This document shows positions 22,469 through 61,120 of a stretch of DNA of 64,000 nucleotides, in pieces. The stretch spans positions 128,001 to 192,000 of the forward strand of contig CAWDVR010000002.1 of NCBI GenBank assembly GCA_963805975.1, read 5' to 3'. How positions within the stretch are numbered: position 1 is the stretch's first letter; each line of letters opens with the position of its first letter. The stretch is from an uncultured Acidobacteriota bacterium. Lineage in GTDB: Bacteria > Acidobacteriota > Thermoanaerobaculia > Multivoradales > SZUA-115. Made by a program: the position numbers and the translations under genes. Below the pieces are notes generated by a model. That model had not been told where the DNA came from, ran no database searches, and saw only the letters and a program-made list of their open reading frames with translations.

Positions 22469-22478
22469 AGGATCTCCC

Positions 22479-26359: not shown

Positions 26360-27721
26360 TCATTTCAAGAGACTTACAGGGTGACTCTGACGGCTGCCAG
26401 AATGGAACCTGTGCCGGCCGTCCTTCGCCGCAGCCACCATCTCCTCGTACACCGCCAGCGTCTGGCGCGCCATCACCTCGTCGTTGAATTGGGCGTGCAC
26501 CACCTCGCGCCCGCGCCGGCCGAGATCGAGCCGGAGGGTGCGGTCGTCGAGCAGCGTGGCGAGGCCCGCGGCCAGAGCCTCCACGGACCCGGGCTCCACC
26601 AGCAGGCCGCCGCCGGTGGCTTCCACCATCTCCGGGAACGAGCCGTGGCGGGGCTGCACCACGGGCACGGCGTTGGCGAGGGCCTCGAGCACCGGCAAGC
26701 CCTTGGCTTCGCGGTAGACCGTGGGCACGGAAAGAATATCGAGCGCGCGCAGGAACCGGATCTTACCCGCGTGGTCCACTTCCCCGACGTATTCGAAGCG
26801 GTCGCCCAGGCCCGCCTGCCGCACGCGCTCGGCCAGGGCCTCGAAAAACGGCCGGTCCTTGTCGCTCATGTAGCCGGCGGCCCGCAGCCTGAGCCGCTCG
26901 CGGCCGGGTTCCCGGGCGAGCTGGAGAAAAGCCCCGACCAGCAGGTGGAAGCCCTTTTCCGGGCAGATGCGGGCCAGATAGCCGAGCGTCGAGCCGTCGC
27001 GCGCCTCGATGCCGAGGTCGCCGTCGCGGTGGCCGTCGAGGCGGAGGCCGAGCGGCACCACCCGCATGCGCTCCGGTGCAACGCCCAGCATCTCCCCCAT
27101 CTCCGCCGCGTAGTACCGGCTGGGGGCGAGGAAGAGGTCGGCGTCGCCTGCCCGCCGGGCGAGCGCGGCCACGGCGCGGGAGCGGTAGGGCTCGCCCAGG
27201 TCCTCGAGGAAGAGGTCCTCGCCCTGCACCGAGACCAGCACCGGCACGCCCGCCGCCCGGCGGATGCGCCGCACCATGCCGAGGAACATCGAGTTGGTGA
27301 TGTGCACCACGTCCGGGCGGTAGTCGCCGGCCAGCCACTCCACGAGCTTGTCGAGCTCCTTGGCCTGGTGGCCGTTCTCGCCTTCGAGCACCGAGAGCGT
27401 CAGCGCGGAGAGCTCGCGCGCGTTGGTCGTCGAGCTGAAACGCGACACCCAGGAGAGGAGCGCCGGGCGGTCGAGCAGGCGGTCCAGGAATCGGGGCGTG
27501 TGCCGGAAGAGGCCCAGCTTCTGCTGCAGGAAGACGTTGATCGCGCCGTAGAAGACGCGGTGGACCGAGACGTCCTGCTCGTCGGTGCGCAGCGGCGTGT
27601 AGGTGGGGATCAGCGCCACCTCGTGGCCCTGGCGCATCAGGGCTGCGGCCACCGTGTTGTCGTGGATGCAGCTCCCGCAGTACATGCCGGCGGCACCGGC
27701 GGCGACGTAGGCGATCCTCAT
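26360..27721 (-). CDS. Glycosyltransferase family 4 with an N-terminal CxxC (about 453 aa)
   Basis: ATGA overlap; MRIAYVAAGAAGMYCGSC; ARICPEKG; EAKGLPVLEALA. Confidence 0.88.
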   Translation of the reverse strand: MRIAYVAAGAAGMYCGSCIHDNTVAAALMRQGHEVALIPTYTPLRTDEQDVSVHRVFYGAINVFLQQKLGLFRHTPRFLDRLLDRPALLSWVSRFSSTTNARELSALTLSVLEGENGHQAKELDKLVEWLAGDYRPDVVHITNSMFLGMVRRIRRAAGVPVLVSVQGEDLFLEDLGEPYRSRAVAALARRAGDADLFLAPSRYYAAEMGEMLGVAPERMRVVPLGLRLDGHRDGDLGIEARDGSTLGYLARICPEKGFHLLVGAFLQLAREPGRERLRLRAAGYMSDKDRPFFEALAERVRQAGLGDRFEYVGEVDHAGKIRFLRALDILSVPTVYREAKGLPVLEALANAVPVVQPRHGSFPEMVEATGGGLLVEPGSVEALAAGLATLLDDRTLRLDLGRRGREVVHAQFNDEVMARQTLAVYEEMVAAAKDGRHRFHSGSRQSHPVSLLK

Positions 27722-29205
27722 GCCGCGCTCCCGCCGAAGAACGGCCGCAGAGCTTCGGGCCGCGGCGGTCGGGTGGCGAGCGAGACCGCGACCAGGGCCA
27801 CCGCCGCTCCGAGCACCACCGCAGTCACCGGCAGCAGGCCGGAGCCCCACAGCGTGCCATCCGGGCCCAGGGGGTAAGCGGGAGCGTTCCAGCCGCGAGC
27901 GAGGAAGAAGACCCAGAGCAGCGCCGCCGTCGCCACCGAAGCGATGGCGCCCTGGCGGCTGGCCCGCCGCCAGTAGAGCGCTGCGACCACCAGCGGGAAG
28001 AGGCCGGCAAAGCCGGTGAAGCACCAGATCCCCATGCGGAAGATGCTGCGGTCCACCAGCTCGGAGAGCAGCCACGCGGCGGCGACCACCAGGGTGATGA
28101 AGACGCGGCCCACGGTGACCTGCCGGCGCTCGCTCATGCCCTGGCCCATGCTCGTCCTGCGGACCACGTCCTGGGTGAACATGTTGCCGAGCGCCAGCAC
28201 CTGCGAGTCGGTCGAGGCCATCACCGCAACGAACACGCCCGCGGTCAGCACCCCGGCCATGGCAGGCGGCGCGTGGAGGCCGATCATCTGCACCAGGACC
28301 GAGCTCGCCGCCGCCGGCGCCAGGTTGGGGAAGTCGAGCCGTGCCAGGAGGCCCAGGAGCACGCTCGGTAGCCAGACCGCGGCGACGCAGAACGGGTACG
28401 CCACCACGGCGAGGCGGAAGGTCTCCGCCCGCCGTGCCGTCAGCCAGTGCGCGAAGAGGTGCGGGAACATGGCCGCCGAGAGCGGGATCAACATGTAGGA
28501 GACAAGCTCCGCGAGCGGGATCTTGCCGCCCCAGGTGAGGAGCTCCGGGTGCGCGCGCCCGACCTCGCCCATCAACGCCTCGAAGCCGCCGCCGCGCCGG
28601 GCGATGACCCAGAACGTGGCGCCGCCCAGGGCCAGGAAGACCACGGTCTGGAACACGTTCACCCAGGCGGTGCCGCGCATGCCGCCGGTGAGCACGTAGG
28701 CCAGCACCACGACCGACATCAGCAGGCTCCCGGCCCAGGTGGGGAGCGAGCCGCCGCTCGCCTGGGCGAGCGTCAGCCCGGCGCCCTTGACCCCGATCAG
28801 GAGATACGGGACGAGCAGGGCGACCAGCACCACGAAGAGCAGCAACCCCAGGCCCGGCGAGTCCCAACGGGCACGGAAGTACTGGACCTGCGTCAAGTAG
28901 CCGTGGCGCTTGCCCAGCCGCCAGAGGGGCAGGCCGACGAAGAAGAACACCGCGGGCACCACCAGCGCCGAGGACGAGGCCATCAACGCGAAGACACCCA
29001 TGCCCCGCAGGTAGGACTCGCCCGAGGCGCCGAGGATCGAGAAGGCGGTCATGTGCGTGCCGACCAGCGACATCAGCAGCACGAAGGGCCCGAGGCCGCG
29101 CGACGCCGCGAAGTAGTCCTCGCCCGTGCCGCGCGCCAGGCGCTGCGAGAGGAGCCCGATCCCGACCAGCACGCCGAGATAGGCGAGGATCAGGCCGAGG
29201 ACCAT
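27718..29205 (-). CDS. Sodium:solute symporter (SSS) family transporter
   Basis: EDYFAASRGLG, TGGMRGTAWVNVFQ, AVMASTDSQ; about 13 TM segments. Confidence 0.92.
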   Translation of the reverse strand: MVLGLILAYLGVLVGIGLLSQRLARGTGEDYFAASRGLGPFVLLMSLVGTHMTAFSILGASGESYLRGMGVFALMASSSALVVPAVFFFVGLPLWRLGKRHGYLTQVQYFRARWDSPGLGLLLFVVLVALLVPYLLIGVKGAGLTLAQASGGSLPTWAGSLLMSVVVLAYVLTGGMRGTAWVNVFQTVVFLALGGATFWVIARRGGGFEALMGEVGRAHPELLTWGGKIPLAELVSYMLIPLSAAMFPHLFAHWLTARRAETFRLAVVAYPFCVAAVWLPSVLLGLLARLDFPNLAPAAASSVLVQMIGLHAPPAMAGVLTAGVFVAVMASTDSQVLALGNMFTQDVVRRTSMGQGMSERRQVTVGRVFITLVVAAAWLLSELVDRSIFRMGIWCFTGFAGLFPLVVAALYWRRASRQGAIASVATAALLWVFFLARGWNAPAYPLGPDGTLWGSGLLPVTAVVLGAAVALVAVSLATRPPRPEALRPFFGGSAA

Positions 29206-29426
29206 CAGCCGCCGTCCCCGGTGTCATCCCCGGCGCCGTCACGGGGCCAGGCGTAGCGCACCAGGAGCGCCATCGCGACCCCGCAGGCGATGCAGTAGCC
29301 GAGGTGATACGCCAGGCTCACCGGCAGCCCGAGCACCAGGCGGCCGTCCGCCGCCAGCCAGAGGTCGTGGTGCAGGAGGAAGAGAAGGGCGAGGCCTCCG
29401 CCGATCGCCGCGCGTGGTCTGGACAT
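29205..29426 (-). CDS. Small 2-TM SSS accessory protein, DUF3311-like (73 aa)
   Basis: LHHDLW..LVLGLPVSLAYH; TGATG-coupled to the SSS gene. Confidence 0.75.
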   Translation of the reverse strand: MSRPRAAIGGGLALLFLLHHDLWLAADGRLVLGLPVSLAYHLGYCIACGVAMALLVRYAWPRDGAGDDTGDGG

Positions 29427-29461
29427 CGCAATGACGGAGCCGGTCGCCGCGGAGCCGGCCC

Positions 29462-30772
29462 CTAGCTCAGCTCCGCGGAAGCGGGCTCGCGGGCCTCGAA
29501 CGAGGAGGCTTCCAGCCGTGGCGCCACGGGAAGCTGGACGATCTGCTCGATCGCCTCGAAGATGGCCGTCGGCTGGTTGGGGAAGACGTTGCCGATCAGC
29601 AGGTCGATCAGCTCGCTGCGACACTCGGGAAACCGCTTCATGAAGGTCGAGAAGCGGAACTCCTTGTCGTAGAAGGCATAGACCAGCTTGCGCAAGGCAT
29701 CGACACCGTCGAAGAAGGACTCGCCCCAGCCGCCGAGCTGAGCGGCCGAGAGGTCGCCCTTGGCCAGCCCTTCGACGATGGCGTCCGCGGCCAGCTCGCC
29801 CGACTTGAAGGCGAAGAGCACCCCGGTCGAGTACATCGGGTCGATGAAGTTGACGGCGTCCCCCACCAGCACCCAGCCGTCGCCGGCCACGCGGCGCGAG
29901 CGGTAGGAGAAGTCCCGCCGCGCCTTCATCGGCTCCATCTGGCGGGCGCCCGCGAGCCGAGGCTGGAGAGACGGGCAGCGCGCCAGCTCCTCCTCGAACA
30001 CCTGCTGCGGGTCCGCCGCGCGGCCCTGGACCATGTGGTCGATCGGACCCACCACGCCCACGCTGACGACGTTGTCCGGCAGCGGGATGTACCAGAACCA
30101 GGCATCCTGGTCCACGGTGTGGATGATCAGCGTCGCGCCCTCGTCGAGCCCCGGGTCGCGGAACGCACCTTCGAAATGGGAGAAGTAGGCGACGTTCCTG
30201 AGGTTGGGCTCGACTTCGATCAGGCCGAAGCGGCTACCCAGGTGCGTGCTGTGCCCTGAGGCGTCGACCACCACGCGGGCCGAGAGCTCGGCGCTCTCGC
30301 CGTTCGGGGTTTGCACCCGCACGCCGCGCGCGCGATCGCCGTCGAAGAGCACCTCGGAGACCGAGAGGCCCCGGTGCACTTCCACCCCGAGCTCGGCGGC
30401 GTTGTCGAGCAGGAGCTGGTCGAACTCCCTCCGATTCACCTGCCAGGTCTGCGAGCTCTCGTGCGGGTCGTTCTCGAAGAAGTAGAAGGGGGACGAGGCA
30501 CGGCCGGACTTGCTGTAGAACTGCACGCTGTACTTCTTCGGAAAGTGGCTGGCCTTCATCTTCTCGAGCACGCCCAGCCGCTGGAGCGTCCAGTAGGTGG
30601 CGGGGATCAGCGACTCGCCGATCTTGAACTGGGGCTCCGCGGAGCGCTCGGCCAGGAGCACGCGGTGGCCCTTCTGGGCGACCAGCGCCGCCACGGTGGA
30701 GCCGGCAGGGCCGCCGCCGATGACGATAGCGTCGTAGGAAGTCTCTCGGGTGATCATTCTCGGCTTCTCCAT
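29462..30772 (-). CDS. Flavin-dependent halogenase-family oxidoreductase
   Basis: GGGPAG, KIGESL, WFWYIP (WxWxIP motif), GDAVNFIDPMYSTG. Confidence 0.85.
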   Translation of the reverse strand: MEKPRMITRETSYDAIVIGGGPAGSTVAALVAQKGHRVLLAERSAEPQFKIGESLIPATYWTLQRLGVLEKMKASHFPKKYSVQFYSKSGRASSPFYFFENDPHESSQTWQVNRREFDQLLLDNAAELGVEVHRGLSVSEVLFDGDRARGVRVQTPNGESAELSARVVVDASGHSTHLGSRFGLIEVEPNLRNVAYFSHFEGAFRDPGLDEGATLIIHTVDQDAWFWYIPLPDNVVSVGVVGPIDHMVQGRAADPQQVFEEELARCPSLQPRLAGARQMEPMKARRDFSYRSRRVAGDGWVLVGDAVNFIDPMYSTGVLFAFKSGELAADAIVEGLAKGDLSAAQLGGWGESFFDGVDALRKLVYAFYDKEFRFSTFMKRFPECRSELIDLLIGNVFPNQPTAIFEAIEQIVQLPVAPRLEASSFEAREPASAELS

Positions 30773-30797
30773 CGGTCGGTCGGTCGAGGTCAGACGC

Positions 30798-32931
30798 TCA
30801 CAGCTTGTAGTCGACGCGCAGCGACACCGAGCGCGACTCGCCCGGGATCACCGAGCCGGAGCCGAAGGCCCGGGTCTCGTGCTCCTCGTCTGCCAGGTTC
30901 TTCAGGTTGACGGTCAGCCGCCAGTCGCCGAGCGTGTACCAGGCCGCGGCGTTGAACAGCACGTAGTCGTCGATCGACGCCGCGTTGTCCACGTCGATGA
31001 ACTGCGAGGAGAGGTAGCGGGCGCCGGCTCCCAACCCAAGGCCGCCCGTGAAGCGCTTCGACACCCACAGGTTGGCGAGGTGCTCGGGGGCGAAGGCCGC
31101 GGTGTTGCCGGAGCGGTCGAAGACCAGGAAGAAGGGCGGCACCGGCCCCAGCGAGACGAGCTGCGAGAACCGGGTCAGCTCGGAGTCGGTGTAGCCGTAG
31201 GCGAGCACGGCGTTCAGGCGGTTGCCGAGCTCCGCCGTCAGCTCCAGCTCGGCGCCGCGCGAGCGCTGGTCGCCGGCCTGCTGGGTGAAGCCGTTGGCGT
31301 CCGGGATGGCCATGTTCTCGCGCTCGATCTGGAACAGCGAGACCGTGCTGCGCAGCCGGCCCGCGAACAGCTCCTTGCGCATCCCAACCTCGAGCCCCTG
31401 GCTCTCCTCGGGCTGGCGCTCCCCTACCACCCGCGCCGAGGGCGGGGCGAAGGCGCGCGAAGCGTTGGCGTAGAGCGAGAAGCCCGGCAGCGGCGCGTAG
31501 ACCACGCCGAGGATCGGCGACGCCTCGCCGTCCGAGCGCGACGACCGCGTGGAGACGTCCTCGAACTCGATGGCGTCGTAGCGCACGCCGACCAGCACCT
31601 GCACCTGGTCCGAGAGCGTCATCTGGTCGAGCACGTAGGGCGCCACGATGGTCGTCTTGCTGTCGCCGGCCTGCGACTGGCCCGGAATCAGGAACAGCGG
31701 CTCGCGGGTGCTGTCGACCGGGTTCGCGAGGTCCACGAAATCGAGGTTCGCCACGTCGAGCGTGAACTGGTCGGTGTTGCGGGCCAGCTCCACCCCCGCC
31801 ACCACGCGGTGTCGGATGGCGCCGGTCTCGGCCGTCCCCACCACCTCGAGCTGGTTGCCGAGAAACTCCTGGCGGTCGTCGAGGAGAGTGAGGGCGCGGG
31901 CCACCAGGAAGCCGCCGAAGCCGTTCGGAAAGGCGCCCACCAGGAGCGTGCCGTTGGTCTCCCAGTCGAGGCCGCGGTAGTAAGTCTTGTTGCGCAGGGT
32001 GACACGGTCCGAGATCTGGGTCTCGAAGTCCACCTGGTAGCGGGCGATCTCCTGCGCCGAGCGGTCGAAGGAGCTCTCGTAGGCGTTGTCGCGGGACACG
32101 TCCGGCAACTGGCCGCCCACCAGCGGCAGACCGGCGTCCGGAGAGGCATCGAAGTCCAGCACCTCGGCGTTGAACAGCAGCCGCGTACGGTCGGACAGCC
32201 GCCAGGTGGCGGCCGGGTTCACGCCCCACACCCGCGAGTCCTTGCCCTCGCGGTGGCCTTCGCTGTCGCGGTAGAGCGCGTTCAGGCGGAAGTCGACGTT
32301 GCCGCCGAGGTTCGCCTGGTTCCAGTCCACCTGGCCGCCGTAGGTGCCGAAGCTGCCGCCCTCCAGGCTCACGACGCCGAAGCTCTCCGGCACCGGCTGC
32401 TTGCGCACCATGTTGACCGCGCCGGCGAGCGGGTTGCTGCCGTAGAGGAAGCCGCCCGGGCCCTTGAGCACTTCGACCCGCTCGACGTTGTAGAGCTGGT
32501 AGAAGCTGACCTCGGGCTCGGGCAGCGCCGTCGATCGACACCAGGCTGCCGTCCACCGAGTCGAAGCCGCGCACCACGAAGAAGTCGAAGATGCCGGCGC
32601 CGGTCTGCACGTTCAGGCCGGAGACGTTCTGCAAGGCGTCGCCGAGCACCTGCGCGCCTTGCTCCTCGAGCAGCGGGTTGCCGACCACGCCGACGTTGGC
32701 CGGGGTCCAGGCGAGCGGCACCGGCAGCTTGGTGGCGATGGTGTTGGAGGTCGGCGCGTAGGGCAGGCTGTCGATGACGAACAGCTCCTCCTCGACCGTC
32801 GCCACGGGTTCAGCCTGCGCGGTCTCCGCCACGGCCCCTCCCTGCGGGGCCGTGCTCTGGGCCTCCACCGCCGCCCAAGGCAGCAGGCCCAACCCCATGA
32901 GCAGCATTCGCAACCAGCGACTTCTCGACAT
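30798..32931 (-). CDS. TonB-dependent receptor (siderophore-receptor-like) with an apparent +1 frameshift at about 32526
   Basis: Signal peptide; plug ATKLPVPL..VVRGF; after removing one G the frame reads IDGLPEPEVSFYQLYNVERVEVLKGP; barrel ends VDYKL. Confidence 0.85.
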
Positions 32932-32969
32932 CAACGTTTCTCCTCACATCGAATGGAAAACAGGTCTTC

Positions 32970-34205
32970 TCAAGCTTTCAAATCGAGCACTACCAGCTCC
33001 GCCTCCGTCCGCACGTAGAGGCGCCCCTCGGCCAGTGTCGGCATGGTCCAGGTCTTCCCCTTGACCACCGCCACGCGCACCTTCTCGCGGAAAGCCTGGG
33101 GTGTCGCTTCCACCAGGCCCAGCTCGCCCTGGTCGGAGAGCACCAGGAGGTGCCCGTCGGCCCACAGGAGCGAGCCCTTGCCGTAGCCGCGCGCCTTCCA
33201 CCGCTCCTCGCCCGTGACGGCGTCGATGGCCTTGAGCGTGGCGTCGTCGAAGCCGTAGAGCACGCCGTCGACGAGAACCGAGCTGTTGAAGTGGTTTTTC
33301 ATCACCCGGCTGCGCCAGAGCTGTTCCACGGCCACGCCGGCGCCCTCCTTCTTCATGCGCAGCACCTGGGCGCCTTTGTCGTAGCTCGAGGAGATGAACA
33401 CCTTGTCCGGCGCGATGAACACCGGCGCCGCGGCGTTGACGTCGTAGCTGGTCTCCCAGGGCACGCGCCAGTAGACCTGGCCGGTGGCGGGCGCCACCGA
33501 GACCAGCGAGCTGCCGGTGAAGAACAGGGCCTGGCGCACGCCCTCGAAGGTGAGGGCGATGGGCGTCGAGTAGCCCGGCTTGTCGGTCTCGACCGTCCAG
33601 CGCACCTTGCCGGTGGCTTTTTCGAAGGCCACCAGGGAGCAGTTCCGCCGCCCGCCGACGTCGACCAGCAGCAGGTCGCCCTCGACGATCGGCACGGTCG
33701 AGATTCCCCACTGCGGCACCCGTGCCTCGAACTCGGTCACCAGGTCTTTGCGCCACTTCTGGGCGCCGGTCTTGGCGTCGACCGCGTAGAGCTTGCCCGA
33801 GGCGCCGAGCGCGAACACCAGGTCGCCGTCCACGGTGGGCGTGGAGCGCGGGCCGCTGCCCATCTCGTCGTTACGGTCGCGGTCCAGCCGCACCCGCCAG
33901 AGCTCCTTGCCGGTCGCTGCCTCGTAGGCGGCCAGCACCTCGTCGCCACCGGAACCAAAGAGCGTGTAGGCCTTGCCCGCCACCACCGCGATTCCCGAGT
34001 AGCCGGTGCCGAGCGCCTTACGCCACAGCACCTTGGGGCCGCCCGCGGGCCAGGCCTGGGAGATCTTCTCGGCCGAGCGCCCGTCGCGGCTCGTGCCCCG
34101 GTACTGCGGCCAGTCGTCGGCGCGGGCTCCCCAGGACGCGAGGCTCAGGCCGACGGCGCAGGCGAGACCGGCGAGGCGAGAGGCGAGAGATGGCGTCATG
34201 GGCAA
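32970..34205 (-). CDS. Secreted PQQ-like (BamB-type) beta-propeller protein
   Basis: DWPQYRG start; repeated AxDxxTGKxxW motifs. Confidence 0.88.
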   Translation of the reverse strand: MPMTPSLASRLAGLACAVGLSLASWGARADDWPQYRGTSRDGRSAEKISQAWPAGGPKVLWRKALGTGYSGIAVVAGKAYTLFGSGGDEVLAAYEAATGKELWRVRLDRDRNDEMGSGPRSTPTVDGDLVFALGASGKLYAVDAKTGAQKWRKDLVTEFEARVPQWGISTVPIVEGDLLLVDVGGRRNCSLVAFEKATGKVRWTVETDKPGYSTPIALTFEGVRQALFFTGSSLVSVAPATGQVYWRVPWETSYDVNAAAPVFIAPDKVFISSSYDKGAQVLRMKKEGAGVAVEQLWRSRVMKNHFNSSVLVDGVLYGFDDATLKAIDAVTGEERWKARGYGKGSLLWADGHLLVLSDQGELGLVEATPQAFREKVRVAVVKGKTWTMPTLAEGRLYVRTEAELVVLDLKA

Positions 34206-34226
34206 GCTCCAGTTCGAGATCGAAGC

Positions 34227-39355: not shown

Positions 39356-39781
39356 AAGGGCACCTCGGGAATCTCTATGCGCCATCATCGGCGTCAGCAA
39401 GCCTCATGAGTTTGGGTCCGGCAACAGCCCCAAGAGAGACAGCAAGAACAGTGCCCGGACAGCGGGACCCGAGGACGGCGGAAACTCCCTGCGCATGGGG
39501 GGGTTTACGCGGTTTCGGGGGCAGGGTTTGGCACGCCCGCCCCCTGAGTACGACAAGATGACGCTTTTCTACTACGAAGGCAGTAGGAGAGCGCGAAGAC
39601 ACGGGCTTGATCAAAGGCCTGATCGCGGGTGGGGGCCGGCGCCACCCTCCGCGGTCTCTTCAGGCGCAAAGACCCTGGCGCGGGCGCCGATTCAACCGGG
39701 GTGACGCTGCGGGAATCAGGCCCGAGCCCCTCGCGGAGCTCGGGTCGGCTTGGTTCAGGTACCCAGGGAGCCTCGGAGCGC

Positions 39782-41065
39782 TCAGCCGCGCCGCTTCCAC
39801 AACCAGACGAGACCCAGGCCCAGAGGAGCGCCGAGCAGCAGGTTGGCGTGCGACGCCTTCCTCACCGGCACCGGCGCGGTCCGGTTCGCCCGGCCGGGGC
39901 TCGGCCTCGCGGCGACGTACGAGCGCGTGTCCCGCCGCCAGCCGCCGTCCCTGGCGCGCTGCAGCGAGTGCCGGGCGGAGTTCCCTTCGGCCCTCTCGGT
40001 GAGGACCGGCATCCCCGGCCGCACCAGCTTGCGAAGTGCGCTGCCGGCCGCAACCGGCCCCAGCACCACGGCGTCCATCTCCTCGTCGGCCGTGGCCTCG
40101 AAGCCGGCGGAAAAGTCGGTGGTCTTCGAGTAGTAGAGCGCCATGGCCGCGTTCTCGCTTTGCAACTGGAGGTCCAGGGTGAGGTCCGCGCCCTTCACGT
40201 CCGGCCCGCCGATCAGGAAGAAGCCGTCCGGGCGGCTGCGCAGCCCGGTGAGCGGGATGGCCTCGGCGTAGGAGCGCTCCGAGCCGCCGTCGAACAGCAC
40301 CAGGGTCATGTGGTCGAGAGGACGGTCGCCCAGGCCACCGTCGTAGAGCTCGATGAAGCTGCTGCCACCGCCCGCGCCGTCGTCGGTGTCGAGCTCGTTG
40401 ATCACCACCGCCGGGTTCACGGCCTCGCCGCTGTAGGCGACGGTCGCGGTCCCCGGCTGGACGGTGCAGGCGATCCGCTCGCTCTCGCTCCTGACGGTCA
40501 CCGCGTTCTGCAACTGGAAGACCGTCCCCGCCGTCGGCGGGTAGGAGGTGATGCCGGTCGCCACGTAGACCGCCTCGGTGCTGTGCAGGATCTCGGTAGT
40601 ACCGGTCTGCGGGTTGGTGGCTTGGAAGCGCCAGAAGAGGTGGCACTCGGCGGTCACTGGGAAGAACGGCGCGCCCTGCGAGCTCTGCGAGGTCATGCGA
40701 TAGAAGGAGCGGCCGGCCGCCGTGTCGAGGGTCACGGTCGCGTTGCCGAGCGAGCCCATGGTGCCCTGGGCCTGGATCATCGTCCAGTCGGCCTCTTGCA
40801 CCGTGGCGGACTTGATCTGGAGGGCCCCCATCTCGGAGTAGGAGTCCAGGTTGACCTGGACCGTGAAGGTGCTGGGGACCGTGGGCGGTGGAAAGACAGA
40901 GGTCCCGGGCGTGGCGCTGACGGCCGTGCAGATCATGGTTTTGGCGCAGCCGTTGCCGCTGCACCCGCCGCCGCCTGCGTGGCTGATGCCGGGGAGGGCG
41001 ACGCCGAGGACGGCGAGCCAGCACAGGACAGCAGGCAGAGCACGACTACACCTCGACTTGAGCAT
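39782..41065 (-). CDS. Secreted surface protein: uncharacterised N-terminal domain, lamin-tail-like domain, C-terminal TM/basic anchor (427 aa)
   Basis: Signal peptide; GGGGCSGNGC; VVINELD..FIELY..PSPGRAN; LGLGLVWLWKRRG. Confidence 0.8.
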   Translation of the reverse strand: MLKSRCSRALPAVLCWLAVLGVALPGISHAGGGGCSGNGCAKTMICTAVSATPGTSVFPPPTVPSTFTVQVNLDSYSEMGALQIKSATVQEADWTMIQAQGTMGSLGNATVTLDTAAGRSFYRMTSQSSQGAPFFPVTAECHLFWRFQATNPQTGTTEILHSTEAVYVATGITSYPPTAGTVFQLQNAVTVRSESERIACTVQPGTATVAYSGEAVNPAVVINELDTDDGAGGGSSFIELYDGGLGDRPLDHMTLVLFDGGSERSYAEAIPLTGLRSRPDGFFLIGGPDVKGADLTLDLQLQSENAAMALYYSKTTDFSAGFEATADEEMDAVVLGPVAAGSALRKLVRPGMPVLTERAEGNSARHSLQRARDGGWRRDTRSYVAARPSPGRANRTAPVPVRKASHANLLLGAPLGLGLVWLWKRRG

Positions 41066-41092
41066 GGAGCGGTCTCCTTTCCGAGCCGATGA

Positions 41093-41125
41093 AGCTGTTT
41101 GGAATGCAGCGGTTTGGAATACAGC
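41093..41125. repeat. 15-bp tandem direct repeat upstream of the 39782-41065 gene
   Basis: AGCTGTTTGGAATGC / AGCGGTTTGGAATAC / AGC. Confidence 0.6.
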
Positions 41126-41291
41126 AAGAGTGACCCGGAAAGGCGCAAGCGGGACAGGCCGGACGACTCGTGGACCTGCGGACCGGAGCGTCCCAGCCCG
41201 CGACCACGGAGGTTTCTTTCGAGGCGCAGAAGTGGTCTGAGCTGCCGCAACGAAGCGAGCAGTGACGGCCCTATCTCAGATGAGGCACCAC

Positions 41292-41321
41292 CCGGAAGGC
41301 AGGGGCGGCCCCACCTTCCGG
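41292..41321. terminator. GC-rich hairpin downstream of the 41366-42049 gene
   Basis: CCGGAAGG..GGGG-CGG-CCCC..CCTTCCGG; no clear U-tract. Confidence 0.4.
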
Positions 41322-41365
41322 TCCGTTTTCGGATGGCCTTCGAGAGGACCTCGCCTGCTTGGGCG

Positions 41366-42049
41366 CTAGCGGGACCGCGAATCCCCCGGCCGCCGCTCAG
41401 GGATTACCACTTCGTTGTCCAGGACTTTTCCGACCACGACGCCGGGCCGGTCGAGCTCTTCGAGGTAGACGGGGGAGACGAGGCGGTAGCGAGTGCCAGC
41501 CGGCGGCGGGAAGGAATACAGGTTCTCGGTCCTCATGATGGCCGGGTTCATCGAACGATAGACCTTGCCCTGCAGGGCAGCCACCGTGTAAAAGAAATGG
41601 AAGCGCATCTCCTGGATCGCGGGGAACTCTGTGCCGGCCACCTGTTCCCAGACGGCGCTCCTCACCGGGCGGGAGGCATCGAGCCAGAAACGGGTCTCAC
41701 CAACTCCCTCGGCGAATGCGATCCCTTCGAGATTGACGAGCTCGAGAGGGACCGTCTTCAAACCGTTCTTCGAGAACGGCAGGCCGACTCGGGCGATCAG
41801 TGGAGATGAGCTGGTCGCTCTCGTCTCGAAGGTCCCAAGCCCCTCGAGAGAGACGAGCTTGCCCTCGTCGCATCCATCGCCACATTCTTCTGGATGGTGG
41901 GGACATACTGCCGTCGATTCCGTCGTCGGCAGCATGGCTCTCCCGGGCGCGGCACTCTGGGCCGAGGTCGCCCAGAACGCTCCTCCCACGATCAGAGACA
42001 GGACGAAGAGCAGACCCAGTGTTCTCGTTGTATTGCTTCTCATCGGCAT
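41366..42049 (-). CDS. Secreted protein of unknown function sharing a domain with both neighbours (227 aa)
   Basis: AAGGAG RBS; signal peptide; EFPA..MRFHF..SFPPPAGTRYRL. Confidence 0.78.
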   Translation of the reverse strand: MPMRSNTTRTLGLLFVLSLIVGGAFWATSAQSAAPGRAMLPTTESTAVCPHHPEECGDGCDEGKLVSLEGLGTFETRATSSSPLIARVGLPFSKNGLKTVPLELVNLEGIAFAEGVGETRFWLDASRPVRSAVWEQVAGTEFPAIQEMRFHFFYTVAALQGKVYRSMNPAIMRTENLYSFPPPAGTRYRLVSPVYLEELDRPGVVVGKVLDNEVVIPERRPGDSRSR

Positions 42050-42375
42050 CTCCTTTCAGATTGGCTCGAGAGCCTGGAAGAGCCCCGAGTCCGTTTGCCG
42101 CGAGAGTCGGTGGCGGATCGAGTGATTTTCAGTATTACGCGCTATATCAGCAGAAGGAGCGTCCCCTGATCGCTCGGGGCTGCTTGAAATGGAGCCTCTG
42201 TATATAGCGGTGCTGGAGAGAGGCTCAACGGGACAGCCCTCGGGCAAGCCGCCTCTATTAAGTGATCTGTGGAAGGAGAGCTTTGACGCGGATCTCCGGG
42301 GGAACGTCCGGTCGGCTGCTTCCGAGCCTGGCTCCGGTCAGGTTTCCTACGGCTGCGTCGGCGGGTTGGGAGGGG

Positions 42376-43638
42376 CTAGCCCCGCGACCTCCAGAGCCAA
42401 AGCAGCCCGGCGGCGAACGGCGCGAGCAGCCACAGGCGTGCCTGACGGAGCGGACGGGTCGCGGGACGGGCCGACTGGTTCAGCTCGCCGGGTGTCGGAG
42501 CAGCAGCCGCGAACGCTCGCGTGTCGCGCCTCCAGCCGCCGTCCGGGAAGCGCTGCAGAGAGTGCCGATCGGCGCCACCCTCGGAGTGCTCCGTCAAGAG
42601 CGGCATCCCCGGTCGCAGGAGGCGGCGAAGGCCGCTCCGCAGTGCGAGCGGTCCCAGCACCACGGCGTCTACCAGTTCGTCCGGCGTGGCTAGAAAACCG
42701 GCGGCGAAGTCGGTCTCCTGCGAGTAGTAGAGCGCCACCGCCGCTCCTTCGCCGCGCAGTGGAAGCTCGACCTCGAGGTCCGCTCCTTCGAACCCCGGAC
42801 CTCCGATCACGAACAGCCCGTCGTCCCGGCTGCGATGGCCGTCCAGGGACATGCCTCCGGTGTAGGCCTGGCCGGAGGCGTCGAACAACACGAGAGTCAG
42901 GCCATCGAGGGCACGGTTGCCCACGCCACCGTCGTGGAGCTCGACAAAGGCACTTGCGCTTCCGTCGCCGCCCACGGCGTCGAGCTCGTTGATCACCACC
43001 GCCGGGTCCATGGCTTCGCCGCTGTAGGCAACGGTGCCGGACCCGGCCGGGAACTCGCAGCGCAGGGCCTCGCTCTCGCTCGTCAGTGTGACGTTGTTCT
43101 GGAGCCGGAAGGTCGTGCCCGGCCGGGGTGGGTAGGAATCGATGCCAGAAGCCGCGTAGATGGCTTCGCTGCTGCGCATCACCAGAGCTTCTCCGGTCGT
43201 GGGGTCGGTCACCTGGAAGCGCCAGAAGAGGTGGCACTCCGCCCGTGCCGGGAAGAACGGCTGGCCGCTGGGCTGCTGCGAGACCATGCGATAAAACGAG
43301 CGCTGGTCAGGGTTCAGTGTGACGGCCGCGTTGCCGAGCTGTCCCATCGTTCCCTGGGCCTCGACCATCAACCAGTCACTCTCTTGCATGAGCGGAGAGA
43401 CGATCCTCAGGTTCCCCATCTCGGAGTAGGAGTCGAGCGCCACCACCACGGCGAAGCGCTCCGGAAGACTGGAGGCGGGACCGTAGAACCGAGGCTCGCA
43501 GCTTCCACTCTTTATGCAGCCGTTGCCGGAGCAACCGCCGCCTCCAGCGTAGCTGGGGCCCGGCGCCGTGACGAGCGCGACGACGATCGAGCCCAAGACT
43601 CCGAGTACGCGAGCGTGAGGTGCTCTCGGACCGTGCAT
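42376..43638 (-). CDS. Paralogue of the 39782-41065 protein (about 420 aa)
   Basis: GGGGGAG RBS; GGGGCSGNGC, LDSYSEMG, AECHLFWRFQ, VVINELD, PTPGELN, LLWLWRSRG. Confidence 0.8.
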   Translation of the reverse strand: MHGPRAPHARVLGVLGSIVVALVTAPGPSYAGGGGCSGNGCIKSGSCEPRFYGPASSLPERFAVVVALDSYSEMGNLRIVSPLMQESDWLMVEAQGTMGQLGNAAVTLNPDQRSFYRMVSQQPSGQPFFPARAECHLFWRFQVTDPTTGEALVMRSSEAIYAASGIDSYPPRPGTTFRLQNNVTLTSESEALRCEFPAGSGTVAYSGEAMDPAVVINELDAVGGDGSASAFVELHDGGVGNRALDGLTLVLFDASGQAYTGGMSLDGHRSRDDGLFVIGGPGFEGADLEVELPLRGEGAAVALYYSQETDFAAGFLATPDELVDAVVLGPLALRSGLRRLLRPGMPLLTEHSEGGADRHSLQRFPDGGWRRDTRAFAAAAPTPGELNQSARPATRPLRQARLWLLAPFAAGLLWLWRSRG

Positions 43639-43709
43639 GGCTTCTCCCCCCTTGTTTGCAGCCGCTCTGCAATCAAGGTGAAAGGAAGCGCCACGGAGGG
43701 GACAGATCC

Positions 43710-44804
43710 CTAGTACACCCCGACCACCACGCTCTCCTGCAGGCGGGAGAAGAGGCGGAGGTTGGTGACGCCGTCCCAGGGGTAGCGGTCGATGGGCTCG
43801 GCGCGCTCGCCCTCGTCGCGCTCGAGGAAACGCGGCATGAAGAACTCCTTGGTGAGCGTGGTGAGCATCACGCGGCCGGTCTCGCCGTAGTCGACCCTGC
43901 GCTCGGGGTCGTCGGGATCGACGATCTCGAAGGTCGCCCGCGGCACGGGCGGGTAATAGGTGATGGCGTAGTCCGGCTTCTCGGGGTCGAAGGGTCGCGG
44001 GCAGGCGAGGCCCATCAACGTGTTGCCGTAGGTGGGGATGAAGTCGATCCCCGGCACCAGCTCTTCCCTGGCAAAACGGTGGAACTGCTCGTTCATCTCC
44101 GTGCCGCCGCAGAAGATGCCGGTAATACCCACCTTGCGCAAATCGATCTTCTCGCAGAGCGACTCGAGGAGCTTGGGGGTGGTGAACAGGCAGCGGATGG
44201 TGTCGTGGGCGCGCAGCAGCGTCAGCCCCTGGTCGACGACGTGCAGCTTGTAGGCCGCGAGCTCGCCGTGCTTGCCGGCCTTGATCAGCTTGTTGACCCA
44301 GCGCGGGTCGAGGTCCACGTGGAACGCGATGCCGCCGCGGTGCTGCGCGAGGTGCTCGATGGCGAGCCGCAGGCGCCTTGGCCCCGTCGGCCCCAGCATC
44401 AGCCAGTCGCCGCCCGGCGGAAAGGTCTCGTCGGACAGCGTGCTGCTGTACATCTCGTAGTCGATGCGGAAGTCGTCGATCGAGATGCGGCTCTTGGGCA
44501 CGCCGGTCGAGCCGCCGGTCTCGAACACCGAGATCGGCGAGCGCTGGTAGGCCTCCGGCACCCAGCGCCGCACGGGCCCGCCGCGCAGCCACTCGTCCTG
44601 GAAGTGGCCCAGGTGCTTGAGGTCGTCGTAGCCCTGGACCTTGTCGCGCGGATCGAACGGCAGCTTGGCGGCGTAGCCGAGCCAGAACGGGCAGCCGGTC
44701 TCGGGCGAGAAGTGCCAGGCGACCATGTCGCGCACGTGCGCGTCGAGGGCGAGGCGCGTCTCGCGGACCTTCTCGGAGCGGGCAGAGGGGGCGATGACTT
44801 CCAC
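43710..44804 (-). CDS. Minimal ANL-superfamily adenylating enzyme, GriC/EhpF-like (about 364 aa)
   Basis: GAGGAG RBS plus GTG; WHFSPETGCPFW, FETGGSTGVPK, YGNTLMG, ERDE, C-terminal VGVY. Confidence 0.8.
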   Translation of the reverse strand: MEVIAPSARSEKVRETRLALDAHVRDMVAWHFSPETGCPFWLGYAAKLPFDPRDKVQGYDDLKHLGHFQDEWLRGGPVRRWVPEAYQRSPISVFETGGSTGVPKSRISIDDFRIDYEMYSSTLSDETFPPGGDWLMLGPTGPRRLRLAIEHLAQHRGGIAFHVDLDPRWVNKLIKAGKHGELAAYKLHVVDQGLTLLRAHDTIRCLFTTPKLLESLCEKIDLRKVGITGIFCGGTEMNEQFHRFAREELVPGIDFIPTYGNTLMGLACPRPFDPEKPDYAITYYPPVPRATFEIVDPDDPERRVDYGETGRVMLTTLTKEFFMPRFLERDEGERAEPIDRYPWDGVTNLRLFSRLQESVVVGVY

Positions 44805-44817
44805 GCTCGGTCCCTCC

Positions 44818-46341: not shown

Positions 46342-46345
46342 GGCG

Positions 46346-48556
46346 CTAGTTCCTCGTCACGGAGACGTTGTCGAAGTAGATGGGAGAGGGCGAGAAACCG
46401 TAGAGCCCAGGCGCTCCAGCGGGGATGGGCAGCGGGTCCTCGGCGGTCAGGGTCCAGTCCGCGGGCTCGGCCTCGCCCTTCTTCCACACCTTCACCTGGA
46501 CGACCGACTTGCCGCCCGCGGTCGTCGCCACCTTGAGCTTCATGGTGTACCAGGTGGCCGGCTGCCAGGGGAACGGTACCTGCTTCGAGGCGCGCAGCTC
46601 CGACTCCCAGGAGCGGACCTGGATCTGCTGCTGGGCGCCCATCAGGTCGGCGGCGTAGCCGCTGTTGATGAGCCCCATGTCCGGCAGCTTGCGGCCGGTC
46701 TGGATGCCCTGGAGGTCGGCCTGGATCGTGTACTCGCTCCACCACGCGGGCCCGACGAAGGTCTTGTGCCGGTGGATGCCCTCGGGAGCCGGGCCCTTCG
46801 CCAGCACCTTGCCACCCTCCACCTCGGCCACCTCGAAGCGGCCGAGCCCGGAGAGGAAATAGCCGGGCCGCTGCTTGACGGCGACGGCCTCGAAATCCTC
46901 GCGGAGCGCCGGCTCGCCGAAGGCGCGCACCCGCGCCGCGGCCGTGAGCTCGCCGGCCTTGGCGGTGACCTTCCCGGCCTGGACGGCCTTGGCGGCATCG
47001 AGGCTCAGCTTGCCGGCATCCACCGTGCCCGCGAGCCCTTCGAGCGCCCAGGTCACCTGGGGCGCGGTCACCTCGCGGCCCTTGGCGTCGAAGGCCAGCA
47101 ACTTGAAAGTCGCGTTGCCGCCCTGCTTCAGGCTGACCTCGCCCGGGACGATCAGGAGCTTGGTCGGCGTGGCGCCGGCGGGCGCGGGATCTTGCGGCGG
47201 GCCGGGAACGGTCTTCGGCCCGGGCTGGATCTTGGCCACCTTGGTCTTGTCCCCCAAGGCGTAGAACCCTTCCTCGCTGGTGAAGTACAGCCGCCCGTAG
47301 GCGACGGCGAACGAGCCGTAGATCTCGGCCGGCCGGCCGTCGGGCATGTGCAGCTCGACGACGCTCAACCCCTCGGCCGAGGTGGGTCCGATCTTGACGA
47401 TGTGCACCCGGCCGTTGACCTCCGTGACGTAGACCTTGCCGTCCGCCACCACGGGCGAGGCCTTGCCCACGGTGCCGAGATCGAAGGTCCAGTCGATGTG
47501 GCCGCTCGCGGCATCCACCTGGTAGAGGTTGGCGGAGTTGTCGACGATGTAGAGCTTGCCCTTCGAGTAGGCCGGGGTCGAGAAGCCGGCCTCGATGTGG
47601 ACGCGCCACTTCTCGTTCGTCTTGGAGACGTCGCCGCTGCCGCGCGGGTCGATCGCCACCATGCGGCCCATCTCCTCGCTGTCCATGTTCTCCTCGGAAT
47701 GCGCGAGGAAGATGGTGCCGTCCGCGCCCACCACCGGCGAGGTGTTGATCGAGCGCTTGGAGAGCTGGAAGCTCCACACCTTCTCGCCGGTGCGCGCATC
47801 GGTGGCGTAGACCCAGCCCTCGGAGTAGCCGGCCACCAGCAGGCGCCGGCCGTCGACGATCACCACCGCCGGCGTCGACTGGCTGTTCATGTCCTCGGGC
47901 GGCGTCGAGGGGTTGGCCACCCAGATCAGGTCGCCGTTCTTCTTGTCGAAGGCGTAGAGCCGGTGGCGCGGCGGCGAGAGCTCGGCCCAGCCGGTAGACA
48001 CGAAGGGCACGATCACCCGGCCCTCGTCCACCAGCGGCGTCTGGGTGCGGCCACCGAAGCCGGAGGCGAAACCGAAGTCCTCCACCAAATTGCGCTCCCA
48101 GACGATCTTGCCGTCGCGGTCGAGGCAGAGGAAGGTGCCGCCCACGCCTTGCACGTAGAGGTAGCCGGTCTCGGGGTCGCCGGCGACGCTCGCCCAGCCC
48201 ACGCGGTTCCAGGGCACGGAGGTGTGGTAGACGTTGAAGCGATGGTCCCAGAGCTTCTGGCCGGTGGCGGCGTCGAAGCAGCCCACCCACTCCTGGCGCA
48301 GGTCGCCCTCGCCGGTCCGGCCGTTGGCGCAGGCGCGGCCGTCGAAGACCACCGGTGTCGAGCGCCCGGTGAGGTCGGCCCGCCAGAGCAGGTTCTCTCC
48401 GGCCTTGGACCAGGAGGACACGAGCCCGGTCTCGGTCGAGACGCCGTCGTTGTTGGGCCCCCGCCAGCCGGCCCACTCTTCCGCGGCAGCAGGGGCGACT
48501 ACCCCGGCCAGCGCGAGCAGGACCGTGACGACACTCACCGTGGGAAACGAACGCAT
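46346..48556 (-). CDS. Secreted PQQ-like beta-propeller with C-terminal Ig-like and ConA/DUF1080-like domains (about 736 aa)
   Basis: AGGAGG RBS; EWAGWRGP; propeller repeats; ends IYFDNVSVT. Confidence 0.85.
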   Translation of the reverse strand: MRSFPTVSVVTVLLALAGVVAPAAAEEWAGWRGPNNDGVSTETGLVSSWSKAGENLLWRADLTGRSTPVVFDGRACANGRTGEGDLRQEWVGCFDAATGQKLWDHRFNVYHTSVPWNRVGWASVAGDPETGYLYVQGVGGTFLCLDRDGKIVWERNLVEDFGFASGFGGRTQTPLVDEGRVIVPFVSTGWAELSPPRHRLYAFDKKNGDLIWVANPSTPPEDMNSQSTPAVVIVDGRRLLVAGYSEGWVYATDARTGEKVWSFQLSKRSINTSPVVGADGTIFLAHSEENMDSEEMGRMVAIDPRGSGDVSKTNEKWRVHIEAGFSTPAYSKGKLYIVDNSANLYQVDAASGHIDWTFDLGTVGKASPVVADGKVYVTEVNGRVHIVKIGPTSAEGLSVVELHMPDGRPAEIYGSFAVAYGRLYFTSEEGFYALGDKTKVAKIQPGPKTVPGPPQDPAPAGATPTKLLIVPGEVSLKQGGNATFKLLAFDAKGREVTAPQVTWALEGLAGTVDAGKLSLDAAKAVQAGKVTAKAGELTAAARVRAFGEPALREDFEAVAVKQRPGYFLSGLGRFEVAEVEGGKVLAKGPAPEGIHRHKTFVGPAWWSEYTIQADLQGIQTGRKLPDMGLINSGYAADLMGAQQQIQVRSWESELRASKQVPFPWQPATWYTMKLKVATTAGGKSVVQVKVWKKGEAEPADWTLTAEDPLPIPAGAPGLYGFSPSPIYFDNVSVTRN

Positions 48557-48735
48557 ACGCATCTTCCTCCTTGGGGGGCTCCTGGCAGGGACTGTCGTGA
48601 CCGGCTCCGCACCGCCCGAGATTTCTACCACAACTGTCGTAAATCGGGATGGAGGCGAAATCCTTGGCCCCTTGTCACCGTATAGACTGTTTGAGCTCGA
48701 CTCACGACTCTCCAACCGCCTGGAGCACCAAGACC

Positions 48736-49587: not shown

Positions 49588-49619
49588 TCGTCAACTCCTG
49601 ATCGCCCAACTCCTGATCA
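49578..49619. repeat. Triple 13-bp direct repeat (14-15 bp spacing) spanning the ankyrin stop codon
   Basis: CAACCCCTGATCG, CAACTCCTGATCG, CAACTCCTGATCA. Confidence 0.75.
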
Positions 49620-49644
49620 AGAATCCTCCCGAGAGAGTCGAGAT

Positions 49645-51030: not shown

Positions 51031-51130
51031 CGTAGGGGCCCCTCCTCCACTTGGAATGGCGGGCCGCTCGTGCGGCTCGCCGCGCTTCGCACACTATTCC
51101 AAGAAAGCCTGCGCATTCAGATCTGCATAG

Positions 51131-51139
51131 TGATACAAT
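51131..51139 (+). promoter_or_regulatory. Possible extended -10 promoter for the second ankyrin copy
   Basis: TG-A-TACAAT in an AT-richer gap about 34 nt before the ATG, with a GAGGAG RBS in between. Confidence 0.4.
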
Positions 51140-51172
51140 CTCTCCAGCTTTCAATCTTTGAGGAGCACGAAT

Positions 51173-52069: not shown

Positions 52070-52089
52070 GGCGCGACGAGGGGGCCGCG

Positions 52090-61096: not shown

Positions 61097-61120
61097 GCGG
61101 CCGAGCGAGGGCTCGGCCGC
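61097..61120. terminator. Hairpin between convergent genes
   Basis: GCGGCCGAGC-GAGG-GCTCGGCCGC, 10-bp stem. Confidence 0.55.

What the first reader, a model, noticed from the sequence alone, without database searches (positions are those of the whole stretch)
26360..48556. Orphan biosynthetic or uptake cluster: GriC/GriD-like acid reductase, Fe-ADH, HemN-like radical SAM, halogenase, GT4
Seen: co-oriented and mostly overlapping genes for these enzymes plus a TonB receptor, an SSS transporter with small subunit and four secreted beta-propellers; no PKS, NRPS or ACP in the window. Known: GriC/GriD (grixazone) and EhpF/G (phenazine) adenylate and reduce aryl carboxylates; WxWxIP flavoenzymes halogenate; HemN-like enzymes include class C methyltransferases. 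Inference: import of an aromatic acid, reduction to the alcohol, then halogenation, methylation and glycosylation, giving an unknown metabolite, envelope modification or ligand for the propeller proteins.
Basis: partly seen in the sequence, partly recalled or inferred. Interest (0 to 1): 0.78.

Follow-up and report, generated by a model that had tools for sequence, protein, structure and literature searches.

The report
Supply line for orphan periplasmic propellers
These genes are part of a conserved system that occurs in almost exactly the same soil and marine bacteria as a large family of unexplained exported propeller-shaped proteins, and it likely makes a sugar-tagged small molecule and hands it to them through a membrane pump predicted to dock one of the propellers.

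Summary
The genes are real and their order is kept across at least five phyla. This scan found the operon before on other DNA; I found it in no paper. What is new here is what it travels with. In 161 genomes of the host phylum the CxxC-GT4 (44), a double-length type VII ABC permease encoded elsewhere in this genome (43) and an expanded family of BamB/PQQ-like propellers (45) co-occur almost perfectly; 116 have none. In 131 Planctomycetota: GT4 39, propellers 41, neither 90. GriC/GriD, radical SAM and halogenase are accessory; some planctomycetes carry an Fe-S/NuoEF module instead. Propeller P3 and the permease each carry an invariant periplasmic Cys, and P3 is predicted to dock on the permease (score 0.69, best control 0.02; orthologues from one planctomycete). 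Best reading: a many-to-one supply line that makes a glycosylated small molecule and delivers it to the propellers. Substrate and product are unknown. Against a classical cofactor: the paralogues share no catalytic residues. Corrections: three unrelated genes interrupt the cluster, and the TonB receptor has a one-base frameshift, probably an assembly error.

The parts
46346..48556 (-). P1: exported PQQ/BamB-like propeller with C-terminal extra domains (736 aa); conserved partner of P2
44818..46341 (-). P2: exported propeller with conserved His/Asp/Glu/Cys motifs (FPHNLA, GVDEGH, GQDPEHGE); possible metal or catalytic site (inferred)
   Evidence: found in 5 of 5 GriC-positive genomes tested
43710..44804 (-). 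EhpF/GriC-like stand-alone adenylating enzyme (accessory module)
   Evidence: E 7e-46 to EhpF
39782..43500 (-). Three inserted lineage-specific genes, not part of the conserved system (the first and third are 59% identical paralogues)
37892..39400 (-). GriD/EhpG-like ALDH-fold reductase; invariant Cys306, HGPG where ALDHs usually have the general-base Glu (motif recalled)
36705..37895 (-). Iron-containing alcohol dehydrogenase, below every named NCBIfam cut-off
35564..36721 (-). P3: single-copy core propeller with invariant Cys200 in a conserved ring; orthologue predicted to dock on the type VII permease
   Evidence: (Cys in 120 of 120 homologues)
34227..35567 (-). HemN-like radical SAM enzyme, not HemN/HemW/HutW by cut-off; travels with the flavoprotein
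32970..34199 (-). P4: exported propeller of the expanded family
30798..32934 (-). TonB-dependent receptor, siderophore-receptor type, split by one extra base near 32523 (probably an assembly error)
   Evidence: (TIGR01783 over cut-off)
29462..30772 (-). Flavin-dependent halogenase-like protein, closest to enzymes such as CndH, PltA and ChlB4
29205..29426 (-). DUF3311 small membrane protein, usual partner of an SSS transporter
27718..29205 (-). Sodium:solute symporter
26360..27721 (-). GT4 glycosyltransferase with invariant N-terminal C15-x-x-C18 and intact E-x7-E signature; core marker of the system
48649..53481 (+). Two ankyrin + propeller gene pairs (P5, P6), members of the expanded client family
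56961..58391 (-). P7: second copy of P2 (57% identical)
61120..61638 (-). Small membrane protein whose homologues sit beside GT4/ABC or P1 genes in other genomes

Best explanation
The cluster is part of a conserved, often scattered system whose constant parts (CxxC-GT4, a type VII ABC permease, propeller P3) occur in almost exactly the genomes that carry many PQQ/BamB-like propellers, and it likely makes a glycosylated small molecule and delivers it to those propellers as their ligand or cofactor. Shown: gene content, synteny, co-occurrence, invariant cysteines. Predicted: P3 docks on both periplasmic domains of the permease with its Cys-bearing face. Inferred steps: the TonB receptor and SSS/DUF3311 import a carboxylic acid precursor; GriC adenylates it, GriD reduces it to the aldehyde and Fe-ADH to the alcohol; the radical SAM/flavoprotein pair optionally decorates it, perhaps as a CoA thioester released by the linked hotdog thioesterase; GT4 adds a sugar; the ABC machine lifts the product out of the inner membrane onto P3; P3 passes it on to P1/P2 and the dispersed paralogues. 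Some planctomycetes without GriC would feed the same core from an Fe-S/NuoEF/NapH-like module.
For: Host phylum, 161 genomes at least 92% complete: GriC 43, GT4 44, permease 43, propeller profile 45; all 43 GriC genomes have GT4 and 4 to 11 propeller matches (11 was the scoring cap); 116 have none. Planctomycetota, 131 genomes: GriC 31, GT4 39, propellers 41, nested in that order, 90 with none. In 41 close relatives, GriC-positive genomes have 16-69 PQQ_2 matches (median 29, n=25) and GriC-negative ones 0-26 (median 2.5, n=16); five mixed families point the same way apart from one fragmented genome. The parts co-occur even when far apart on a chromosome (G172, G120, G190, G080). Fusions link the core: GT4-ABC ATPase (L138), GT4-hotdog thioesterase (P0018), P3-PPIase (L143). 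P3 Cys is invariant in 120 of 120 homologues and the permease periplasmic Cys in 144 of 144. Complex prediction: score 0.69, best of 3 controls 0.02; this mark was reached by 116 of 157 solved complexes and 2 of 215 mismatched pairs (counts hold only roughly for this job); runs agree in at least 90% of contacts, partner pLDDT at least 91; the interface includes the P3 Cys and its conserved ring. GriC/GriD chemistry: PMC10179220 passages. Hand-off from a type VII permease to a docked periplasmic partner: PMC12646458 passages.
Against: The dispersed paralogues share only structural W/G/P residues and the N-terminal WPxWRG motif, with no common polar active site. Neighbours of 14 dispersed paralogues show no cytochrome c or other consistent redox partner. 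Three genomes have propellers with no GT4 found (G130, G209, G315). The upstream chemistry is not fixed: GriC is missing in 8 of 39 GT4-positive planctomycetes and in G023 and G110; the radical SAM is missing in 5 of 42 and the flavoprotein in 6 of 42 GriC-positive genomes. That is awkward for one universal cofactor. The predicted interface is not enriched in conserved residues (permease 3 of 22 against 101 of 630 overall; P3 12 of 26 against 132 of 346), its tightest contacts are variable charged residues, and the permease Cys is not among the confident contacts. The complex was folded with orthologues from G319, not the window's own proteins. Kin are not independent, so Fisher P values overstate. 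Profile A1 held 4 operon-type P4 rows of 27. No substrate or product was identified.
Confidence: 0.42

Rival explanations
1. The system covalently modifies or anchors the propellers. It is a many-to-one maturation machine in which the GT4 product is attached to a shared feature such as the N-terminal WPxWRG motif after export, with the invariant cysteines of the permease and P3 acting as carriers.
For: Same co-occurrence. The N-terminal motif right after the signal peptide is the family's most distinctive shared feature. Single invariant periplasmic cysteines. A P3-PPIase fusion suggests handling of folding proteins. Precedents: PEP-CTERM and GlyGly-CTERM (search listing only).
Against: The motif also looks like the structural closure shared with PQQ dehydrogenases (profile matches their N-termini). 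No transferase or protease was seen among conserved neighbours. The two cysteines were not predicted in contact.
Confidence: 0.2
2. The product is an envelope glycolipid or glycoside. The ABC machine extracts it, and the propellers are carriers or assembly factors for it, as in Lol or Mla transport, rather than users of it.
For: Type VII permeases extract hydrophobic substrates (PMC12646458 passages). The propellers fold like BamB. Some GriC-negative planctomycetes have prenyltransferase and squalene-cyclase-like genes beside GT4.
Against: It does not explain why one lipid needs 16-69 divergent, scattered paralogues. No acyl carrier, ketosynthase or acyltransferase is conserved with the system, and no flippase of the usual type was seen.
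Confidence: 0.17
3. One reading: an ordinary but orphan biosynthetic cluster for a secreted halogenated aromatic metabolite or metal chelator, which the TonB receptor takes back up.
For: EhpF/GriC, halogenase and HemN-like relatives come from natural-product clusters. The receptor passes the siderophore-receptor cut-off. One dispersed propeller is fused to an esterase domain.
Against: GriC is 64-80% identical across phyla among the 80 best loci. The genes are kept even when scattered over the chromosome, and the halogenase, radical SAM and receptor are dispensable while GT4, permease and propellers are not.
Confidence: 0.1
4. Uptake and detoxification or catabolism: an environmental acid is imported, reduced, glycosylated and pumped out, and the link to the propellers reflects shared lifestyle or ancestry.
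For: Importers, reductases, a glycosyltransferase and an exporter fit a detoxification route, and whole families are all-positive or all-negative.
Against: All-or-none co-occurrence in two phyla and within mixed families, four propellers inside the operon, and predicted docking of P3 on the permease.
Confidence: 0.06

Closest known systems
GriC/GriD (grixazone, Streptomyces griseus) and EhpF/EhpG (D-alanylgriseoluteic acid, Pantoea/Enterobacter agglomerans)
   Same: Full-length homology to EhpF; adjacent ALDH-fold reductase with a conserved Cys; predicted acid-to-aldehyde chemistry (PMC10179220, PMC3175449 passages).
   Different: No phenazine or 3,4-AHBA genes nearby; far wider and better conserved; followed by Fe-ADH and GT4; accessory to a larger system.
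Type VII ABC hand-off systems YbbAP-TesA and LolCDE-LolA
   Same: Double-length FtsX/MacB-type permease with two periplasmic domains plus a LolD/YbbA-like ATPase; a periplasmic partner predicted to sit on both domains (PMC12646458 passages).
   Different: The partner is an eight-bladed-type propeller, not TesA or LolA. The permease has a much larger first periplasmic domain and an invariant Cys, and gives only weak PDB sequence hits (LolC, YtrF, MacB). It is tied to a dedicated glycosyltransferase.
Mycofactocin and PQQ cofactor systems (one biosynthesis locus, many client paralogues)
   Same: Many-to-one pattern found by profiling; includes a radical SAM, a flavoenzyme and a glycosyltransferase (PMC3023750, search listing only; enzyme list recalled).
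   Different: HemN-like rather than SPASM radical SAM, no precursor peptide seen, exported clients without a shared catalytic motif, and no PqqC over cut-off in this genome.
BamB and PQQ-dependent dehydrogenases
   Same: Same propeller fold (pLDDT 90.8; top fold hits BamB, TM about 0.67). Tuwongella immobilis has 28 such 'BamB' paralogues, five detected in single fractions (PMC8567305, one passage).
   Different: All below the BamB and PQQ-dehydrogenase cut-offs; a lipobox in only 1 of 155 genes checked; about 390-residue domain; many copies per genome.
MshA/BshA (GT4 enzymes of mycothiol and bacillithiol synthesis)
   Same: Top fold hits for the GT4 model; GT4 enzymes acting on a small alcohol.
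   Different: Only about 20% identity, far below their cut-offs; invariant CxxC at the acceptor-side loop; coupled to an ABC machine.

Membership tests
GriC/GriD-EhpF/EhpG two-protein carboxylic acid reductase | Stand-alone EhpF-type adenylating enzyme | tested here: met
   E 7e-46 over residues 23-352 to EhpF, the only PDB hit
GriC/GriD-EhpF/EhpG two-protein carboxylic acid reductase | Linked ALDH-fold reductase with catalytic Cys | tested here: met
   GriD within 10 kb in 45 of 52 loci; Cys306 conserved
GriC/GriD-EhpF/EhpG two-protein carboxylic acid reductase | ATP- and NAD(P)H-dependent reduction of an aryl carboxylate | not testable with these tools
   Needs an assay; the EhpF structure paper was not held, so substrate-pocket residues were not compared
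Phenazine or grixazone biosynthetic cluster | Core scaffold genes (phz or griH/griI type) in the cluster | tested here: not met
   None among window genes or conserved neighbours
Flavin-dependent halogenase | GxGxxG, WxWxIP and the conserved Lys | tested here: met
   GxGxxG at 19, WFWYIP at 225; Lys80 aligns with a Lys of CndH/PltA-type proteins and is invariant in 10 orthologues; its catalytic role is recalled
Flavin-dependent halogenase | Carrier protein for the thioester-bound substrate in the cluster | tested here: not met
   No ACP found; a PaaK-like ligase and hotdog thioesterase are neighbours in some relatives
Flavin-dependent halogenase | Halogenation activity | not testable with these tools
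   Related non-halogenating flavoproteins (QhpG, LodB, geranylgeranyl reductases) also score
HemN / HemW / HutW-ChuW | Curated HMM cut-off | tested here: not met
   162 vs 325, 151 vs 205, 184 vs 400 bits; separate HemW over cut-off in the genome
Class C radical SAM methyltransferase | HemN-like fold with CxxxCxxC and HemN_C domain | tested here: met
   (hits HemN and NocN)
Class C radical SAM methyltransferase | Methyl or methylene transfer to an sp2 carbon | not testable with these tools
   Needs an assay
BamB | TIGR03300 cut-off and lipoprotein signal | tested here: not met
   Best 209 vs 285 bits; lipobox in 1 of 155 (start calls are approximate)
PQQ-dependent dehydrogenase | Family cut-off, conserved active site, PQQ synthesis in the genome | tested here: not met
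   At most 92 vs 480 bits; no shared polar residues; PqqC 42 vs 240 bits
Type VII ABC transporter | FtsX/MacB permease with periplasmic core domains plus LolD-like ATPase | tested here: met
   (genes at G000 C2:85600-89723, outside the window)
YbbAP-TesA | YbbA cut-off, YbbP homology, TesA partner | tested here: not met
   YbbA model 209 vs 336 bits; no YbbP hit at E 0.01; no TesA among conserved neighbours
Mycofactocin-like peptide-derived cofactor | SPASM radical SAM and precursor peptide | tested here: not met
   The radical SAM is HemN-like; no conserved peptide of 50 aa or more besides DUF3311; shorter ORFs were not searched

The most novel reading that the evidence does not exclude
An undescribed periplasmic cofactor or prosthetic group, made by a CxxC-glycosyltransferase pathway and loaded by a dedicated type VII ABC machine through a cysteine-bearing propeller, activates the tens of 'BamB/PQQ-like' propellers of Planctomycetota, Acidobacteriota, Poribacteria and Latescibacterota. 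These would then be a large hidden enzyme family, as mycofactocin clients proved to be.
Probability: 0.3. Interest if true: 0.93.

Novelty: new variant of a known kind. Interest (0 to 1): 0.8.

Why it matters
Many abundant soil, marine and sponge bacteria carry tens of exported propellers annotated as BamB or PQQ-binding, with no known job. The co-occurrence shown here ties them to one single-copy pathway. That makes the question directly testable: one deletion (GT4 or the permease) should affect the whole family at once. If the reading holds, it adds a new partner type and cargo to type VII ABC machines, gives a widespread role outside antibiotic clusters to the EhpF/GriC reductase family, and may reveal a new cofactor or protein modification.

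Tried and rejected
Housekeeping HemN/HemW: rejected. PQQ-dependent dehydrogenases: rejected on cut-offs, lack of a shared active site and lack of PqqC. A canonical carboxylic acid reductase replacing GriC/GriD in G110: rejected; the neighbour is a convergent multi-module NRPS. Vut_1, amidohydrolase, MoaA and sulfite-oxidase-like neighbours were seen in only a few loci and set aside. Neighbours of 14 dispersed propellers gave no common theme. Expression: no RNA holder listed, which is no evidence either way. Essentiality in Planctopirus limnophila could not be read: the main data file was too large, supplement 5 had no annotation terms, and I did not confirm that this species has the system; that file may bear on whether the system is essential. 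The EhpF structure paper was not held. The GriC tree (quick method, 79 rows) splits several phyla into 2-5 groups; this hints at transfer but was not tested. The ESM atlas gave only GT4 clusters; the inserted genes could not be run there. Literature searches found no description of the operon or of its link to the propellers; most subscription journals are not in the library.
Full report
Observation. Between 26360 and 48556 there are 16 genes on the minus strand. Three inserted genes (39782-43500) separate GriC from GriD. They have no family hit and were absent from all 80 related loci. The receptor is split by one extra base near 32523, which related contigs in 3 of 4 runs lack, so I read it as a probable assembly error. 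The closest named relatives are Thermoanaerobaculia and other Acidobacteriota, so I infer that host phylum.

Conservation. The order P1-P2-GriC-GriD-FeADH-P3-radical SAM-P4-receptor, followed by flavoprotein-(DUF3311-SSS)-GT4 where the flank reaches that far, recurs wholly or in part in Acidobacteriota, Poribacteria, Latescibacterota, Gemmatimonadota, Calditrichia and Planctomycetota. A second arrangement, GriC-GriD-GT4-ABC ATPase-large permease, occurs in Blastocatellia, Vicinamibacterales and Bryobacteraceae loci. The window's genome has that ABC pair about 40 kb before the window, preceded by a hotdog thioesterase. Earlier notes of this scan describe both arrangements on other DNA; two word look-ups for a link to the propeller expansion found nothing.

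The link to the propeller family. The genome encodes at least 21 full propeller domains of this type. In 41 close relatives, the 25 with GriC had 16-69 PQQ_2 matches and the 16 without had a median of 2.5; the exceptions were G018 (17), G023 (19) and G029 (26; 89% complete). G023 proved to have the operon without GriC/GriD. I then profiled 161 genomes of the phylum: GriC 43, GT4 44, permease 43, propeller profile 45. The differences are G110 (no GriC), G158 (permease not found; 310 contigs) and G130 (propellers only); 116 genomes have none. In 131 Planctomycetota, GriC (31) is nested in GT4 (39), which is nested in propellers (41), and 90 have none. Whole families tend to share a state, so the number of independent contrasts is small and the P values overstate.

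Core and accessory parts. The radical SAM was found in 37 of 42 and the flavoprotein in 36 of 42 GriC-positive genomes; five genomes lack both, and the two genes stay adjacent when displaced. The flavoprotein was in 15 of 15 GriC-positive and 0 of 7 GriC-negative propeller-bearing planctomycetes; two system-negative genomes gave weaker hits near E 1e-77. P3 was single-copy in 5 of 5 reduced systems, P2 in 5 of 5 and Fe-ADH in 4 of 5 GriC-positive genomes tested. Five of 5 GriC-negative planctomycetes tested have GT4 but no GriC or radical SAM match, and 3 of 3 tested have the permease. In four of those five, GT4 lies among NuoEF- and NuoG-like, NapH-like and 4Fe-4S proteins, in two with prenyltransferase or squalene-cyclase-like genes. 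Fusions join GT4 to the ABC ATPase (L138) and to the thioesterase (P0018), and P3 to a PPIase (L143).

Anatomy. GT4 folds as a GT-B enzyme nearest MshA and BshA at about 20% identity and keeps C15 and C18 in all 52 aligned rows. A dispersed paralogue folds like BamB; across paralogues only structural W, G and P residues and the N-terminal motif are shared. By contrast P3 has a Cys invariant in 120 of 120 homologues within a conserved S/Y/H/R/D ring, and P2 has conserved His/Asp/Glu motifs. The permease has one Cys invariant in 144 of 144 rows in its second periplasmic domain.

Docking test. I folded both periplasmic domains of the permease with P3, using adjacent genes of G319 because the window's own set exceeded the size limit. 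The model supports binding; it does not show it: score 0.69, best of 3 controls 0.02, a mark reached by 116 of 157 solved complexes and 2 of 215 mismatches (counts only rough for this job); runs agree in at least 90% of contacts and partner pLDDT is at least 91. P3 touches both domains with the face that carries the invariant Cys, near permease residues 410 and 415 (conserved in 132 and 133 of 144). The PDB sequence search with the permease gave only weak LolC/YtrF/MacB hits, and I know of no solved complex like this one (recalled). Against it: the interface is not enriched in conserved residues, and the permease Cys is not among the confident contacts.

Mechanism. The geometry matches YbbAP-TesA and LolCDE-LolA, where a type VII permease is proposed or shown to pass a hydrophobic substrate to a docked partner (PMC12646458, passages read). 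With GriC/GriD chemistry (PMC10179220, passages; PMC3175449, passages), the simplest chain is import of an acid, reduction to the alcohol, optional tailoring, glycosylation, extraction and loading onto P3. One single-copy pathway with many scattered clients is the pattern of cofactor and protein-maturation systems (PMC3023750, PMC1569441, PMC3237569; search listing only). I put delivery of a ligand or cofactor at 0.42, covalent modification of the propellers at 0.2, an envelope glycolipid at 0.17, a secreted metabolite at 0.1 and detoxification at 0.06. Every chemical step is inferred, and the variable upstream module means the molecule may differ between lineages.

Novelty. Each part belongs to a known family, but the system fails membership of phenazine or grixazone clusters, YbbAP-TesA, BAM, PQQ enzymes and mycofactocin. 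Searches found no description; the only relevant passage notes 28 'BamB' paralogues in Tuwongella immobilis (PMC8567305). A preprint on PQQ and lanthanide propellers (10.64898/2026.07.10.737718, passages) deals with other families. I rate it a new variant of a known kind, interest 0.8, because it turns an unexplained protein expansion into a one-knockout experiment.

Noticed in passing
window 115-15365 (+): A run of six large co-oriented genes without Pfam hits except a Tubulin_2 domain (4790-8080) and a choice-of-anchor X motif; resembles tubulin-like conflict systems (recalled).
   Followed up: no
window 24161-26297: Two transposase remnants (DUF772/DDE and DUF4096 IS5-type) directly downstream of GT4; they may mark a rearrangement that separated the ABC genes from the operon.
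   Followed up: no
window 39782-43500 (-): Three inserted, probably exported proteins of no known family; two are 59% identical paralogues and the third has two paralogues on contig C6.
   Followed up: partly
window 58595-61083 (+): A second TonB-dependent receptor, also split into two frames, next to P7 and the small conserved membrane protein.
   Followed up: no
window 17656-24122 (-): Four co-oriented genes of 365-869 aa with no Pfam or NCBIfam hit in the frames scanned.
   Followed up: no
L130-L135 (G232, G319, G331, G250): GriC-negative planctomycetes place GT4 and propellers beside NuoEF/NuoG-like, NapH-like and Tat-type 4Fe-4S proteins, some with DUF116-polyprenyl synthase and squalene-cyclase-like genes: an undescribed electron-transfer module.
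   Followed up: partly
L109:3334-5670 and L113:3367-5289: Dispersed propellers fused to an esterase domain and to an unassigned C-terminal domain; others are fused to ankyrin repeats (L112).
   Followed up: partly
L071:3256-3969 and L057, L079, L097: A Vut_1 putative vitamin transporter lies just upstream of GriC in four loci, possibly an alternative importer of the precursor.
   Followed up: no
L120:3788-6243: The housekeeping HemN-type gene is in frame with an upstream stretch overlapping hemE, suggesting another local frameshift in this assembly.
   Followed up: no
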